Source: Escherichia phage phi92. Taken from it: 64,000 bases of DNA. Numbering within the stretch: position 1 is the stretch's first letter; the number at the start of each line of letters is the position of its first letter. The position numbers and the translations under genes were made by a program. The DNA lies in the sequence record NC_023693.1. One strand, given 5' to 3'. This document shows positions 15,401 through 18,877 of this stretch, piece after piece. The notes beneath the pieces were generated by a model. The model ran no database searches, had not been told where the DNA came from, and worked only from the letters and a program-made list of their open reading frames with translations.

Positions 15401-15769
15401 CTAATTAATGTCAGCACTATGATTGTTGAAAGTATAGGATACTCCATCGCCCAAGTCAACATGAATCTCAACTCCTAACTGTCTTTCTAATGGTAAACGT
15501 TTTGAGAATTGATAATTACAAAGTTTACAGTCTAAGTCAAGCAATTCATGTTTGCTTAAACCTGCAACGATAACTTTGCTTCCCGCTGTCCACTCAATAC
15601 CTTCAAAGTTATCTCTTCTTTTCAAAATGTCAAGTAAGAAGATGATTTGTTGCCATTCCGTAGACAAGTCTTCTTCATAGAACGCAGAACAAAAAGTTTT
15701 ATCATCGTAGAAAGCATACATTATGCCTCCATCTATTGTTTCACTTCTAACGTAACGTGTGACCCTCAT
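15401..15769 (-). CDS. hypothetical protein (122 aa); first gene of the leftward block
   Basis: ORF adjacent to divergent regulatory region. Confidence 0.4.
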   Translation of the reverse strand: MRVTRYVRSETIDGGIMYAFYDDKTFCSAFYEEDLSTEWQQIIFLLDILKRRDNFEGIEWTAGSKVIVAGLSKHELLDLDCKLCNYQFSKRLPLERQLGVEIHVDLGDGVSYTFNNHSADIN

Positions 15770-16110
15770 TATTTCCTCCTGTACGGCTCTGTAACGAGCT
15801 AATAGCCTCTAAGATATGCAATCACCTTACCTCACAGTAAAACTCGTTACAATCGTTTTTAGGAGGTTTAGGTTGTACTTAAAAATAATCTAAAAAGGTG
15901 TTGACAAACGCAAAAAAGTATGCTACCCTAACCCCCGAAAAACGCCGAGCGCAGCGAGGGGGTGTTATCTAATCTTGTGATACATGATCTAACAGACAAC
16001 TGAGTAGTCTACATATAGCACTATGTTATGTCTATAATACTAACATACATACTCTATACTAACAATAGATTCTTTATTAATTTTATTATTAATTAAATAA
16101 TAAATATCTA

Positions 16111-16139
16111 TTGACTTTAGATCTATCTGTATGTAGAGT
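16111..16139 (+). promoter_or_regulatory. sigma70-like promoter upstream of prs-like gene
   Basis: TTGACT - 17 nt - TAGAGT. Confidence 0.5.
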
Positions 16140-16178
16140 AGAGAACATAAAGTCCTAACTCAACTAAGGAGATAAACA

Positions 16179-17072
16179 ATGAAAGTTAGTATTCTACATG
16201 GTGTTGGCTGTTATGTTACTGATGTAGACGTTAAAGTCTTTACATTCTCTGGTGGAGAACAACATGTTCAACTAGACACGAATCTATCAGGTTTCAATCA
16301 TGCTACAGACAGAATCTTACTCTCTTTAGAAGTAAGATCTGCTAAAGACTTGATGACTTTGGTTATGACTAAGAATGCATTGGACAATATGCTATATCAT
16401 AAACCATATTGTGTTGATTTGCTCATGTTGTATGTGCCATATGCACGACAAGACAGAGTGTGTGAACCTGGGGAAGCATTCGGAGTTAAAGCATTTGCTT
16501 CTATAATTAATTCATTAAATTTCTCACGTGTTATCGTTGCTGATCCACATAGTGATGTTACTCCAGCGGTGTTTGACAGACTCTGTGTAATACCTCAAGA
16601 AGAAATTGCTTACGAAACTTTAAAGTGGAAGTTACGTATGGAGAATTTTGCTCTTGTTAGTCCTGATGGTGGTGCTCTTAAGAAAATATTTAAATTATCT
16701 AAGAAAATGTCTTTAGATGTGTTCTGTGCAGAGAAGGTTAGAGATACTGCAACAGGTGCTATTGTTCGTACAGACATTTCTGTACAGGATTTCAATAAGC
16801 GTAACCTGATGATCGTAGATGATATCTGTGACGGCGGTAGAACTTTTATTGAATTGGCTAAAGTGCTACGTGCTCGTAACGCAGGTAAGATTGAGTTATA
16901 TGTTACACACGGTATCTTTTCTAAAGGTCTTAAAGAGTTAAGTGAGCACTTTGACTGCATTCATTCTCTTAATGTGTGGGAAGATAACATCCAAGAAGAT
17001 TCCGGTGTTCTTGTTAAGAATCAGTCAGATTTGCAACAACAAATTGTATCTCCATACGTGTGGAATTTTTAA
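16179..17072 (+). CDS. prs: ribose-phosphate pyrophosphokinase family protein (PRPP synthetase-like; possible ADP-ribose pyrophosphokinase)
   Basis: PRPP-binding loop MIVDDICDGGRT, VSPDGGALKK, VIVADPHS; strong RBS AAGGAG. Confidence 0.85.
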   Translation: MKVSILHGVGCYVTDVDVKVFTFSGGEQHVQLDTNLSGFNHATDRILLSLEVRSAKDLMTLVMTKNALDNMLYHKPYCVDLLMLYVPYARQDRVCEPGEAFGVKAFASIINSLNFSRVIVADPHSDVTPAVFDRLCVIPQEEIAYETLKWKLRMENFALVSPDGGALKKIFKLSKKMSLDVFCAEKVRDTATGAIVRTDISVQDFNKRNLMIVDDICDGGRTFIELAKVLRARNAGKIELYVTHGIFSKGLKELSEHFDCIHSLNVWEDNIQEDSGVLVKNQSDLQQQIVSPYVWNF

Positions 17073-17082
17073 ATAATAAGTG

Positions 17083-17111
17083 TTGACAATAGGGAGTATG
17101 CTTAGTAAGAT
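17083..17111 (+). promoter_or_regulatory. sigma70-like promoter overlapping an 8-bp-arm palindrome, upstream of NAMPT-like gene
   Basis: TTGACA - 17 nt - TAAGAT; palindrome GGGAGTAT ... ATACTCCC spans about 17091-17116. Confidence 0.5.
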
Positions 17112-17143
17112 ACTCCCACACTAACAAACAAGGAGACATAACT

Positions 17144-18877
17144 ATGAATATTTTTGCACCTTTTGCTACTGATTGGTATAAACCTGGTCACAAGCAGATG
17201 TACAACCAAAATACAAAACTCATTTTCTCTAATTTAACTCCTCGTAATGATAAAAACTTTGCACACTATGCAGATCGTGAAGCACGTGGTGTGATTGTTT
17301 TAGGTATTCGTCGAGCAGTCACTGATGCTCTTGTAACTATGTGGGATAGCTTCTTTAAAATGTCTCGTAGTGCAGCAGTAAATAAATTTTATCGTATGTC
17401 TAAAAATGCATTAGGTGCTTCTGCTCCTTCTGCTGAATGTTGGGAAGAATTGCACGATTTAGGTTATCTTCCGCTAGAAGTTCGATCTCTGCCAGAAGGT
17501 GTTTTGTGTCCTATTGGTGTTCCTGTGTTTACTGTGCATAATACTTTAGAAAAATTCTTTTGGTTAACTAACTATGTGGAAACACTATTGTCAGATGAAA
17601 CTTGGAAGACAATGACTAATGCCACAGCAGCTTTTCAGTATAAGCGTATCGCTATGGCGTATGCGATGGCAACGTGTGATAACATTGATCACGTTAATTT
17701 CCAGTGTCATGACTTTAGCCTACGTGGTTTAAGCAATATCGAAGATGGTTATAAGAGTGGTATCGCTCATTTGGCATCTTTCACAGGAACAGATAACATT
17801 CTGGCTATTGAGACTGTGCATGATTATTATGGTATTGATTATGATCAGTTTGTTGCAGGTTCTATTCCGGCAACAGAACATTCAGTAGCAACGACTAACA
17901 TTGGAGCTATTGTTGAAGATCTGAAGAAACATTTCCCACATCTTAAAGATGATGTTGATGGGCTTCGTTATGTAGCAGAGAAAGAGTTTCTTCGCCGCTA
18001 TATTGAAGAAATTGTTCCAGAAGGTTTTTGTTCATATGTAGCAGATTCTTATGATTACTGGGCTGTCTTGACTCGCATTCTGGTAGAATTGAAAGAGTCC
18101 ATTATGTCACGAAATGGTCGTCTTGTTATTCGTCCAGATTCAGGAGATCCGGTTAAAGTTGTTGCAGGATACAATGTTGAATCTTTTGCTAACTATGAAG
18201 ACCTTTTAAATAATGGTATTGCTACAGCCACTGAAGTAGTTCATTTGGCTGATGTTAATAAGTATTACAATGTTCTTCAGGATTGCAGTGTTGCTGATTG
18301 TATTGATGAAACTTATGAGATTCCTTATTGTGAAGCAGTAGGTTCTATTCAAATCCTTTGGGAAGTGTTTGGTGGTACTATCAACCGAAAAGGCTACAAG
18401 GTTCTTGATCAGCACATCGGTATGATTTATGGTGATTCTATTACTGTTGAACGAGAATACGAGATCTTACGCCGACTGAAGAAGAAAGGTTTTGCAGCTT
18501 CCAATATTGTATTTGGTGTTGGTAGTTATACTTATCAGTTCAATACACGAGATACTTTTGGTTTTGCTGTTAAAGCAACAGGTAGTATCATCGGTGAACA
18601 CGAAATTTTGGTAAGTAAGGAGCCTAAAACTGATCCTGGTAAACGCTCTGCAAAAGGTTTTATTAAGGTTGTTAAGGATACAAATGGTAAACTTTCTCTT
18701 GTGGATAATCTTTCTTTTAAAGATATCCAAGATGAAGACAATGAGTTAAAAGTTATCTTCAGGGATGGTACGGTTATTACACCACAAGTAGAAGGACGTG
18801 ATGAAACATTTACTGATATCCGCAACCGTGTTGATGTAGAGGTTCTTCGTACTATGGGAACCATCCAGGTTGACTAA
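17144..18877 (+). CDS. nadV: nicotinamide phosphoribosyltransferase family protein (NAMPT/NadV-like)
   Basis: N-terminal FATDWYKPGHKQMY matches the NAMPT TDSYK region; 577 aa with C-terminal extension. Confidence 0.85.
   Translation: MNIFAPFATDWYKPGHKQMYNQNTKLIFSNLTPRNDKNFAHYADREARGVIVLGIRRAVTDALVTMWDSFFKMSRSAAVNKFYRMSKNALGASAPSAECWEELHDLGYLPLEVRSLPEGVLCPIGVPVFTVHNTLEKFFWLTNYVETLLSDETWKTMTNATAAFQYKRIAMAYAMATCDNIDHVNFQCHDFSLRGLSNIEDGYKSGIAHLASFTGTDNILAIETVHDYYGIDYDQFVAGSIPATEHSVATTNIGAIVEDLKKHFPHLKDDVDGLRYVAEKEFLRRYIEEIVPEGFCSYVADSYDYWAVLTRILVELKESIMSRNGRLVIRPDSGDPVKVVAGYNVESFANYEDLLNNGIATATEVVHLADVNKYYNVLQDCSVADCIDETYEIPYCEAVGSIQILWEVFGGTINRKGYKVLDQHIGMIYGDSITVEREYEILRRLKKKGFAASNIVFGVGSYTYQFNTRDTFGFAVKATGSIIGEHEILVSKEPKTDPGKRSAKGFIKVVKDTNGKLSLVDNLSFKDIQDEDNELKVIFRDGTVITPQVEGRDETFTDIRNRVDVEVLRTMGTIQVD

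What the first reader, a model, noticed from the sequence alone, without database searches (positions are those of the whole stretch)
17089..17118. Palindrome overlapping the internal promoter between prs-like and NAMPT-like genes
GGGAGTAT ... ATACTCCC (8-bp arms, 10-nt spacer) overlaps the -10 region of the TTGACA promoter in the 71-bp gap between the two genes. It could be an operator, an RNA processing hairpin, or an attenuator that decouples expression of the two enzymes.
Basis: seen in the sequence. Interest (0 to 1): 0.35.

Follow-up and report, generated by a model that had tools for sequence, protein, structure and literature searches.

The report
Stem-loop built into a phage promoter
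The palindrome is real and encodes a conserved RNA stem-loop built into a promoter between the two genes of a phage NAD+-rebuilding anti-defence operon, but this promoter-plus-stem-loop design is already known from T4-like phages, so it is a solid but fairly ordinary regulatory feature.

Summary
GGGAGTAT (17092-17099) and ATACTCCC (17110-17117) lie in the 71-nt gap between the two genes. They sit inside a TTGACA-N17-TAAGAT promoter-like site. Three inner pairs extend the hairpin to 11 bp (about -13 kcal/mol).

The window is a Justusliebigvirus coliphage. The two genes are Adps and Namat of the NARP1 NAD+-reconstitution operon, not true Prs/Nampt.

Klebsiella-phage relatives keep the same cassette with a different stem: two compensatory pair changes plus G-U pairs. 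More distant namat loci carry unrelated stems at the same promoter position. Using one identical criterion, 7 of 11 strong namat promoters have such an embedded hairpin, against 1 of 33 unrelated strong promoters.

The stem ends one base before the predicted start site. So only RNA reading through from adps can fold it.

The cassette is also a recombination junction. Genes are inserted just upstream of it in relatives, and one metagenome contig switches namat lineage inside its leader.

This matches the 'promoter-early stem-loop' (PeSL) cassettes of T4-like phages. An operator is unlikely, and the stem lacks the U-tract of a canonical terminator. No transcript data exist, so the effect on RNA is inferred.

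Verdict: new member of a known kind, modest interest.

The parts
16111..16139 (+). Upstream promoter-like site (TTGACT-N17-TAGAGT) in front of adps. It is the presumed source of read-through RNA.
   Evidence: Promoter scan; sequence. The same scan found no terminator-like site on the + strand between here and 17092. Activity was not tested.
16179..17072 (+). adps, the Prs-like ADP-ribose pyrophosphokinase and first gene of NARP1.
   Evidence: ORF. Pfam PF14572 and PF00156. PDB Prs hits only at E about 1e-15. NARP1 paper.
17073..17082 (+). AT-rich stretch ATAATAAGTG directly after the stop codon. It forms the left edge of the conserved cassette.
   Evidence: Homology with the Klebsiella-phage cassettes starts right after the stop codon of whichever gene lies upstream.
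17083..17088 (+). -35 hexamer TTGACA.
   Evidence: TTGAC is invariant in alignment A1. Phage muut carries TTGATA.
17092..17117 (+). Stem-loop. Outer helix 17092-17099 with 17110-17117, bulged G17100, inner helix 17101-17103 with 17107-17109, loop 17104-17106.
   Evidence: -12.9 to -13.1 kcal/mol. Covariation. Strand asymmetry.
17106..17111 (+). -10 hexamer TAAGAT, lying in the loop and 3' half of the stem.
   Evidence: The T, A and final T are invariant across cassette variants, while hexamer positions 4-5 change together with their stem partners.
17118..17118 (+). Predicted transcription start (A, 7 nt after the -10 hexamer), one base after the stem. This is inferred, not mapped.
   Evidence: Standard sigma-70 spacing applied. 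In the other namat cassettes the 3' end of the hairpin lies between -6 and +2 of the predicted +1.
17118..17143 (+). G-poor A/C-rich leader (ACACTAACAAAC) with Shine-Dalgarno AAGGAGA at 17130-17136.
   Evidence: The AACAAA...AGGAGA leader is shared with the Klebsiella-type, Mydovirus-type and L010 cassettes. The crossover zone of mosaic contig L052 lies here.
17144..18877 (+). namat, the Nampt-like nicotinamide ADP-ribose transferase and second gene of NARP1.
   Evidence: ORF. Pfam PF04095. Best PDB matches are SpbetaL1 Namat 9W5X and 9W5W at E=2e-118, against about 1e-48 for human Nampt.

Best explanation
The palindrome is the DNA form of an 11-bp RNA stem-loop built into a compact promoter cassette directly in front of namat. 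The cassette consists of the upstream stop codon in AT-rich sequence, TTGACA, a 17-nt spacer, TAAGAT, an A/C-rich leader and a strong Shine-Dalgarno site.

The predicted start site (A17118) lies one base after the 3' arm. RNA started at this promoter therefore lacks the hairpin. Only RNA reading through from the adps promoter (16111) can form it.

The most likely function is on that read-through RNA. The hairpin would act as a U-tract-less attenuator or 3'-end barrier that ends or stabilises the adps message, while the embedded promoter restarts transcription for namat. Expression of the two NARP1 enzymes would then be partly uncoupled.

The same cassette behaves as a portable junction where genes are inserted and namat alleles exchanged. 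This is the 'promoter-early stem-loop' (PeSL) architecture described for T4-like phages.

Shown here: the palindrome, its stability, the promoter consensus, the maintained structure with changed sequence, and the mosaic junction. Inferred: promoter activity, the start site, and any effect on RNA.
For: - Anatomy.
- Structure kept while sequence changes: the Klebsiella-type cassette aligns without gaps and has stem GGAGAGGAU/AUCUUCUCC. This gives two double-sided changes, a G-U pair in 7 of 10 sequences, and 88% of cells paired against 49-65% when the partners are slid.
- The -10 positions T, A and final T stay invariant, while hexamer positions 4-5 co-vary with the 5' arm.
- Strand: the sense fold is more stable than the antisense fold in 7 of 8 variants.
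- Recurrence with unrelated stems at the same position:
  - L010: ACUGUGGUU/AAUCACAGU in the spacer.
  - Mydovirus: GGGCG-TACAAT-CGCCC.
  - L124: GGGGTG-TAGAAT-CACCCC, plus L110 and L111.
  - PAK_P1.
- Frequency: 7 of 11 strong namat promoters have an embedded hairpin, against 1 of 33 unrelated strong promoters scored the same way (Fisher P=6e-5). Collapsing duplicate hairpins gives 5 of 9 and P=8e-4.
- No terminator-like site lies between the adps promoter and the stem.
- Junction behaviour: relatives have a 67-aa ORF or an HNH gene inserted between adps and the cassette. Contig L052 matches Klebsiella Stephanstirmvirinae up to nt 2397 and Mydovirus from nt 2380, so the switch lies in the leader.
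- PeSL papers describe the same layout. The stem-loop is most often between -35 and -10 or over the -10, G-T pairs occur, and one tested stem-loop cut lacZ expression like rrnB T1 (PMC2839356; PMC4122927).
Against: - No U-tract follows the stem in any embedded-hairpin variant: ACACUAAC in the window, and similar U-poor sequences in the others. Canonical intrinsic termination is therefore unlikely.
- No 5'/3'-end mapping or RNA-seq for this phage group was found. Promoter use, start site and read-through are all predictions.
- Within the E. coli-phage clade the stem is no better conserved than its flanks. Three singleton variants (muut, AMO3598, L066) each break one pair, with no compensation.
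- The covariation rests mainly on one deep split between the E. coli and Klebsiella types.
- Relatives 05F01 and Tr1, and the Ackermannviridae, run NARP1 without the cassette.
- Hairpins are common in the intergenic gaps of this genome anyway.
- Cassettes within the window share no extended similarity beyond the promoter consensus, unlike the repeated PeSLs of RB49.
Confidence: 0.55

Rival explanations
1. RNA-processing determinant. The bicistronic read-through RNA is cut by RNase E in the AU-rich stretch just after the adps stop (UUUUUAAAUAAUAAG). The stem-loop then becomes the protective 5' end of a processed namat mRNA, or the 3' end of the adps mRNA. It would not attenuate transcription.
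For: - The stem forms only in read-through RNA.
- An AU-rich single-stranded segment lies immediately 5' of it.
- No U-tract is present.
- Sense-strand G-U pairs occur.
- From general knowledge: 5'-terminal stem-loops stabilise E. coli and T4 mRNAs.
Against: - No cleavage data exist.
- The AU-rich stretch is also what a promoter UP region would look like.
- The stem is too short for RNase III (11 bp).
- It is hard to see why processing would require the stem to abut the start site in every variant.
Confidence: 0.15
2. No selected function. The inverted repeat is a neutral or mutationally generated quasi-palindrome (templated repair within hairpins) that happens to sit in a promoter spacer.
For: - Hairpins of this strength are frequent in the window.
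- About a third of perfect 8-bp inverted repeats are expected by chance.
- Within-clade variants weaken the stem without compensation.
- Templated mutation can change both arms at once and so mimic covariation.
Against: - At least five unrelated stem sequences occupy the same position in namat promoters, against 1 of 33 control promoters.
- Only 0.1% of shuffles of the 71-nt gap reach the observed energy.
- The stem is retained across roughly 45% sequence divergence in the arms.
Confidence: 0.15
3. DNA-level element. It could be an operator for a dimeric phage or host repressor covering the -10. Alternatively it could be a cruciform or recombination signal that modulates the promoter or mediates cassette exchange.
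For: - The inverted repeat spans the spacer, the -10 and +1, which is the classic operator position.
- The cassette is a recombination junction.
- PeSLs were reported to recombine and form mini-circles (PMC2839356).
Against: - Arm sequences differ between relatives, and arm spacing changes from 10 to 6 nt.
- G-T pairs weaken the antisense and duplex symmetry.
- Other promoters in the window do not share the arm sequence.
- Stems of 5-11 bp with 3-10-nt loops are poor cruciform formers (general knowledge).
- The crossover in L052 lies in the leader, not in the stem.
Confidence: 0.1

Closest known systems
PeSL (promoter-early stem-loop) cassettes of T4-like phages RB49/phi1, PST and nt-1 (Arbiol et al. 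2010, PMC2839356; Comeau et al. 2014, PMC4122927)
   Same: - Intergenic cassette starting at the upstream stop codon in AT-rich DNA.
- Near-consensus sigma-70 promoter.
- Stem-loop placed between -35 and -10 or over the -10, with G-T pairs.
- Shine-Dalgarno site and start codon at the 3' end.
- Association with indels and recombination junctions between related phages.
   Different: - The host phage is a Stephanstirmvirinae (phi92-like) myovirus, not a T4-like phage.
- The cassette lies inside a two-gene functional operon (NARP1), not next to ORFans.
- Cassettes in this window share no extended repeat similarity.
- The stem is mixed-sequence rather than polyG/polyC.
- Terminator and promoter activity have not been tested here.
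Rho-independent (intrinsic) terminators
   Same: A stable stem-loop directly after a gene, on the sense strand.
   Different: No U-tract follows the stem (ACACUAAC), and the terminator scan did not call it. By contrast, Felixounavirus NARP1 junctions carry GGGGCU-UAAA-AGCCCC followed by AUUUUG, which is terminator-like.
Intercistronic mRNA-stabilising stem-loops in polycistronic operons, for example REP in malEFG and the puf operon hairpins (own knowledge, not tested here)
   Same: A U-tract-less hairpin between two cistrons that could set different mRNA levels for the upstream and downstream genes.
   Different: Those elements are not embedded in a promoter. Here the stem is interlocked with the -10 element and ends at the predicted start site.
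Promoter-overlapping operators (lacO, LexA-box type)
   Same: An inverted repeat covering the spacer, the -10 and +1.
   Different: Half-site sequence and spacing are not conserved among relatives, whereas complementarity is.

Membership tests
PeSL cassette | Intergenic, beginning at the stop codon of the upstream gene within AT-rich sequence | tested here: met
   TAA at 17070-17072 is followed by ATAATAAGTG. In Klebsiella relatives the cassette likewise starts after the stop codon of a different upstream gene.
PeSL cassette | Near-consensus sigma-70 promoter (TTGACA-N17-TATAAT-like) | tested here: met
   TTGACA-N17-TAAGAT matches 10 of 12 positions. The key positions are invariant across variants. 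This is a sequence match only; activity was not measured.
PeSL cassette | Stable stem-loop inside or overlapping the promoter | tested here: met
   An 11-bp stem at 17092-17117 spans the spacer, the -10 and the discriminator, at -13 kcal/mol.
PeSL cassette | Shine-Dalgarno site and start codon of the downstream gene at the 3' end | tested here: met
   AAGGAGA at 17130-17136 and ATG at 17144.
PeSL cassette | Member of a repeated family of similar cassettes spread through plastic genome regions | tested here: inconclusive
   8 of 12 intergenic promoter-like sites in the window have a hairpin at or below -13 kcal/mol nearby, and several overlap the promoter (28127, 21282, 19291). However, blastn of the cassette finds no paralogue beyond 13 nt.
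PeSL cassette | Sits at indel or recombination junctions between related phages | tested here: met
   An ORF or HNH gene is inserted just upstream of the cassette in Klebsiella phages. The L052 mosaic switches lineage within the leader. Variable inserts lie between adps and the cassette in L111 and L124.
PeSL cassette | Stem-loop attenuates or terminates upstream transcription, and the promoter is active (reporter assays) | not testable with these tools
   Needs reporter fusions or transcript mapping. The absence of a U-tract leaves the mechanism open.
Intrinsic terminator | GC-rich stem followed by a U-tract | tested here: not met
   The tail is ACACUAACAAAC, and the site is not listed by the terminator scan.
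Protein operator (dimeric repressor site) | Conserved half-site sequence at fixed spacing among relatives | tested here: not met
   The inner arm bases differ between the E. coli and Klebsiella types, and the loop is 10 nt against 6 nt.
RNase III processing site | About two helical turns (roughly 20 bp) of double-stranded RNA | tested here: not met
   At most 11 pairs with a bulge, and no longer helix appears in the 101-nt fold.
Any curated Rfam family | Covariance-model match | tested here: not met
   The only hit in 15500-19700 at E<=1 is a sub-threshold GA-cis match at 15858-15973.
NARP1 operon (gene context: Adps + Namat) | Adjacent Prs-family and Nampt-family genes in a phage, with the second closer to Namat than to Nampt | tested here: met
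   Pfam PF14572 and PF04095. SpbetaL1 Namat structures 9W5X and 9W5W match at E=2e-118, against 1e-48 for Nampt. The operon is described in BASEL phages, and BASEL phage PaulScherrer (Bas60) carries this exact junction. Enzyme activity is not testable here.

The most novel reading that the evidence does not exclude
The hairpin that embraces the -10 element may be a conserved, read-through-specific RNA device of the NARP1 internal promoter. It is kept with at least five different stem sequences across Stephanstirmvirinae, Vequintavirinae and other phages. It would set the ratio or timing of Adps versus Namat by ending or stabilising the adps transcript exactly where namat transcription restarts. 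The whole cassette would also be a mobile recombination module through which phages swap namat alleles between subfamilies.
Probability: 0.2. Interest if true: 0.5.

Novelty: new member of a known kind. Interest (0 to 1): 0.3.

Why it matters
NARP1 lets phages rebuild NAD+ and escape several NAD+-depleting defence systems, and it has been treated as a simple two-gene operon. This analysis shows that in phi92-like and rV5-like phages the second gene has its own strong promoter-like cassette, with a structurally conserved stem-loop interlocked with the -10 element.

Two consequences follow. First, the two enzymes may be expressed independently, which is relevant to engineering or interpreting NARP1 knock-outs and reporter constructs. 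Second, the cassette is a breakpoint where genes are inserted and namat alleles exchanged. That extends the PeSL 'mobile regulatory cassette' idea beyond T4-like phages and links it to the turnover of anti-defence genes.

It does not reveal a new kind of element.

Tried and rejected
- Rfam at a permissive threshold: nothing at the hairpin.
- Folding 101 nt around the site: z-scores of only -1.2 (sense) and -0.8 (antisense). The signal is a local hairpin, not a larger structure.
- IMG/VR scan with a pattern that fixes GGAG...CTCC: only the two known stem types plus chance hits.
- Close-relative protein scan of IMG/VR: only 4 loci.
- Search for paralogous cassettes in the window: none beyond the promoter consensus.
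- Polymorphism among nine E. coli-phage sequences: the stem shows no extra conservation and three pair-breaking singletons, so this gives no support.
- Antisense 41-aa ORF at 17139-17014: rejected. The start codon and the peptide across the stem are not conserved in the Klebsiella type.
- Literature search for transcription-start or RNA-seq data on phi92, phAPEC8 or Justusliebigvirus: none found.
- T4 MotA-box middle promoter (TGCTTA at 17099-17104): considered by eye. No suitable -10 lies 11-13 bp downstream, and the phage is not T4-like, so this was dropped.
- The idea that the 3' arm (CUCC) masks the namat Shine-Dalgarno site: not supported. In the read-through fold the arm pairs with the 5' arm, and it is absent from promoter-initiated RNA.
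- Junction hairpins in other NARP1 operons (Felixounavirus, Mooglevirus, Certrevirus): present, but discounted as specific evidence because 68% of gaps in this genome have hairpins.

Full report
**What is there.** The 71-nt gap between ORF 16179-17072 and ORF 17144-18877 contains exactly one inverted repeat. It is GGGAGTAT at 17092-17099 and ATACTCCC at 17110-17117, perfectly complementary and 10 nt apart. The promoter scan places TTGACA at 17083-17088, a 17-nt spacer and TAAGAT at 17106-17111, matching 10 of 12 positions. The 5' arm therefore lies in the spacer, and the 3' arm covers the end of the -10 hexamer and the discriminator. Folding shows three more pairs (CUU 17101-17103 with AAG 17107-17109) after a bulged G. 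That gives an 11-bp stem-loop of -12.9 to -13.1 kcal/mol, present in both the minimum-energy and the centroid structures of the 101-nt context.

**Chance.** Shuffles of the 71-nt gap contain a perfect 8-bp inverted repeat in 0.7% of trials and reach the observed energy in 0.1%. On the scale of the genome the hairpin is unremarkable. There are about 130 local minima at or below -11 kcal/mol on the + strand and about 107 on the - strand in 64 kb. In addition, 15 of 22 same-strand intergenic gaps hold a hairpin at or below -12 kcal/mol. The single sequence shows that a hairpin is there, but not that it matters.

**Context.** The region is 99% identical to Justusliebigvirus coliphages (Stephanstirmvirinae, phi92-like). 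The 401 bases 16900-17300 are identical to the corresponding stretch of phage outra. The Pfam hits are Prs-associated (PF14572) and NAPRTase (PF04095). These are the same annotations that Osterman et al. showed to be misleading for the NARP1 operon. In NARP1 the first enzyme (Adps) pyrophosphorylates ADP-ribose, and the second (Namat) joins the product to nicotinamide to remake NAD+. The second protein matches the SpbetaL1 Namat crystal structures 9W5X and 9W5W at E=2e-118, against about 1e-48 for human Nampt. BASEL phage PaulScherrer (Bas60) carries this same junction. The 'prs-like/NAMPT-like' genes are therefore Adps and Namat.

**Close relatives.** Klebsiella-infecting relatives (KP13-26, KP2025, FKP3) have an extra 67-aa ORF or an HNH endonuclease gene between adps and namat. 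Even so, they keep the cassette directly upstream of namat, starting right after the stop codon of whatever gene precedes it. Their cassette aligns with the window without gaps from the -35 to the leader, but the stem is GGAGAGGAU-gaauua-AUCUUCUCC. In alignment A1 (10 distinct sequences, including metagenome variants L052, L066 and L067) the results are as follows:
- The four outer pairs are invariant.
- Two pairs change on both sides (U-A to A-U, U-A to G-C), and one becomes G-U.
- Two further pairs form only in the Klebsiella type, which shortens the loop from 10 to 6 nt.
- 88% of cells are paired, against 49-65% when the partners are slid by 1-3 columns.
- The T, A and final T of the -10 hexamer are invariant, while hexamer positions 4-5 change together with their stem partners. 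Promoter and stem constraints therefore coexist.

For seven of eight stem variants the sense strand folds better than the antisense strand. For four of them the difference is 4-5 kcal/mol, because of G-U pairs.

**Caveats to the covariation.** It rests essentially on one deep split between two types. Within the E. coli-phage clade three singleton variants each break one pair without compensation, and phage muut also weakens the -35 to TTGATA.

**Distant relatives.**
- Contig L010 (Namat 39% identical) has TTGACT-GTGGTTTCTAATCACAG-TAGAAT with a 9-bp stem in the spacer, and a leader recognisably related to the window's.
- Mydovirus K18PH07C1 has TTGACA-N16 followed by GGGCG-TACAAT-CGCCC, so the stem arms flank the -10 hexamer.
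- I surveyed 76 distinct namat upstream regions from IMG/VR. Eleven have a strong promoter (at least 10 of 12 matches, TAnnnT) 15-70 nt before the ATG. Seven of the eleven carry a hairpin at or below -9 kcal/mol whose 5' arm lies upstream of the predicted start and whose 3' end falls between -6 and +2 of it.
- The stems are unrelated in sequence: the window type, L110, L111, L124 (GGGGTG-TAGAAT-CACCCC) and L130/L141.
- The same test applied to 33 unrelated strong promoters, recovered by chance in the metagenome scan, finds one. Fisher's test gives P=6e-5, or P=8e-4 after collapsing duplicate hairpins. A z-score version gave 8%.
- All surveyed loci have an adps homologue upstream, sometimes separated from the cassette by inserted genes.
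- Phages 05F01 and Tr1 lack the cassette. In Ackermannviridae the two genes overlap at ATGA. Felixounavirus, Mooglevirus and Certrevirus have a GC-rich hairpin, some with a U-run, but no promoter.

**Junction behaviour.** Metagenome contig L052 aligns with a Klebsiella-type Stephanstirmvirinae contig (81% identity) up to nt 2397. It aligns with Mydovirus (79% identity) from nt 2380 onward. The switch therefore falls in the 18-nt A/C-rich leader between the stem and the Shine-Dalgarno site. Together with the insertions just upstream of the cassette, this marks the cassette as a recombination joint.

**Mechanism.**
- *Shown:* a stable sense-strand stem interlocked with a sigma-70-type promoter, maintained with changing sequence in several lineages.
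- *Inferred from standard sigma-70 geometry:* transcription starts at about A17118, one base after the stem, so promoter-initiated namat mRNA begins with an unstructured A/C-rich leader and lacks the stem. RNA initiated at the adps promoter-like site (16111-16139) meets no terminator-like site before the stem and would contain it.
- *Most likely role:* the stem acts on read-through RNA as an attenuator or 3'-end barrier while the promoter restarts namat transcription, which uncouples the two enzymes. For PeSL stem-loops in RB49/phi1, one tested stem-loop reduced downstream lacZ as strongly as rrnB T1, and the promoters were very strong.
- *Against simple termination:* none of the embedded-hairpin variants has a U-tract.
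- *Alternatives that remain open:* RNase E-linked processing or stabilisation, a neutral quasi-palindrome, and a DNA-level role.
- *Disfavoured:* a protein operator, because arm sequence and spacing are not conserved.

**Comparison with known systems.** The layout matches the published definition of PeSL cassettes point by point. [quoted passage not shown] It also includes a Shine-Dalgarno site plus ATG, and association with indels and recombination. The differences are these:
- The phage is not T4-like.
- The cassette sits inside a functional two-gene anti-defence operon rather than beside ORFans.
- Cassettes within this window share no extended similarity.
- Activity is untested.

Other promoter-like sites in the window have stems over the promoter or at the start of the transcript: 28127, 21282, 19291, 26433, 38622, and 7403 and 1668 on the minus strand. 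The style is therefore general in this genome.

**Verdict.** The element is a new member of a known kind. Interest is modest at 0.3. The added value lies in the corrected gene identity (NARP1), the comparative evidence that the embedded stem is maintained, and the evidence that the cassette is a junction for gene insertion and namat exchange.

Noticed in passing
window 18870-18960 (+): Right after the namat stop there is another promoter-like site (TTGACT-N17-TAAGAT with a TG upstream). It overlaps a very stable structure: 83 nt, -23.2 kcal/mol, z=-3.56, 0 of 200 shuffles as stable. The closing helix (AUAAA..CUUCGUGA with UCACGAAG..UUUAU) pairs the promoter spacer with the Shine-Dalgarno site and AUG (18949) of the next ORF. 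Only read-through RNA from namat could form it, and it would then hide that ribosome-binding site.
   Followed up: partly
window 18949-19170 (+): A 73-aa Cys-rich ORF, not annotated in phage outra, lies between namat and the next annotated gene.
   Followed up: no
L052 (metagenome contig JACCDR011750338.1), nt 2380-2397 in cassette orientation: Mosaic phage contig. The left side (adps, a 68-aa ORF and the cassette hairpin) resembles Klebsiella Stephanstirmvirinae at 81% identity. The right side (namat) resembles Mydovirus of the Vequintavirinae at 79%. The switch lies in the cassette leader.
   Followed up: yes
L004 (Klebsiella phage FKP3) 930-1505; L002/L003 1675-1878: An HNH endonuclease gene (FKP3) or a 67-aa ORF (KP13-26, KP2025) is inserted between adps and the namat cassette. 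The E. coli phages have nothing at this position.
   Followed up: partly
window 28127-28180, 21268-21303, 19280-19315 (+): Other promoter-like sites have stems overlapping promoter elements. CAAATATCC...GGATATTTG spans the -10 at 28139-28174 and is followed by TTTTT. AGCCTC/GGGGCT straddles the -35 at 21282. AACTAG/CTAGTT straddles the -35 at 19291.
   Followed up: partly
window 15858-15973: In the divergent intergenic region, promoter-like TTGACA 15901 is followed by a CCCCC...GGGGG hairpin (-14.7 kcal/mol). On the minus strand this contains a terminator-like stem plus TTTTT (15956-15943). There is a weak sub-threshold Rfam hit to GA-cis (21.3 bits against a 34.7-bit gathering score, E=0.37).
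   Followed up: no
GenBank MG065639, MG065645, MG065656, MG065689 (hits H33-H36, H90-H93): Four records labelled 'Campylobacter phage' with host C. jejuni are 99.8-100% identical to this coliphage junction. They are probably mislabelled or contaminant assemblies.
   Followed up: no
L035/L036, L061, L030 (metagenome promoters): A few unrelated strong phage promoters carry long loop-less perfect palindromes in the spacer. Examples are GCGGTACGTACCGC and ACATAAGCGCTTATGT. These look more like protein-binding sites than hairpins.
   Followed up: no
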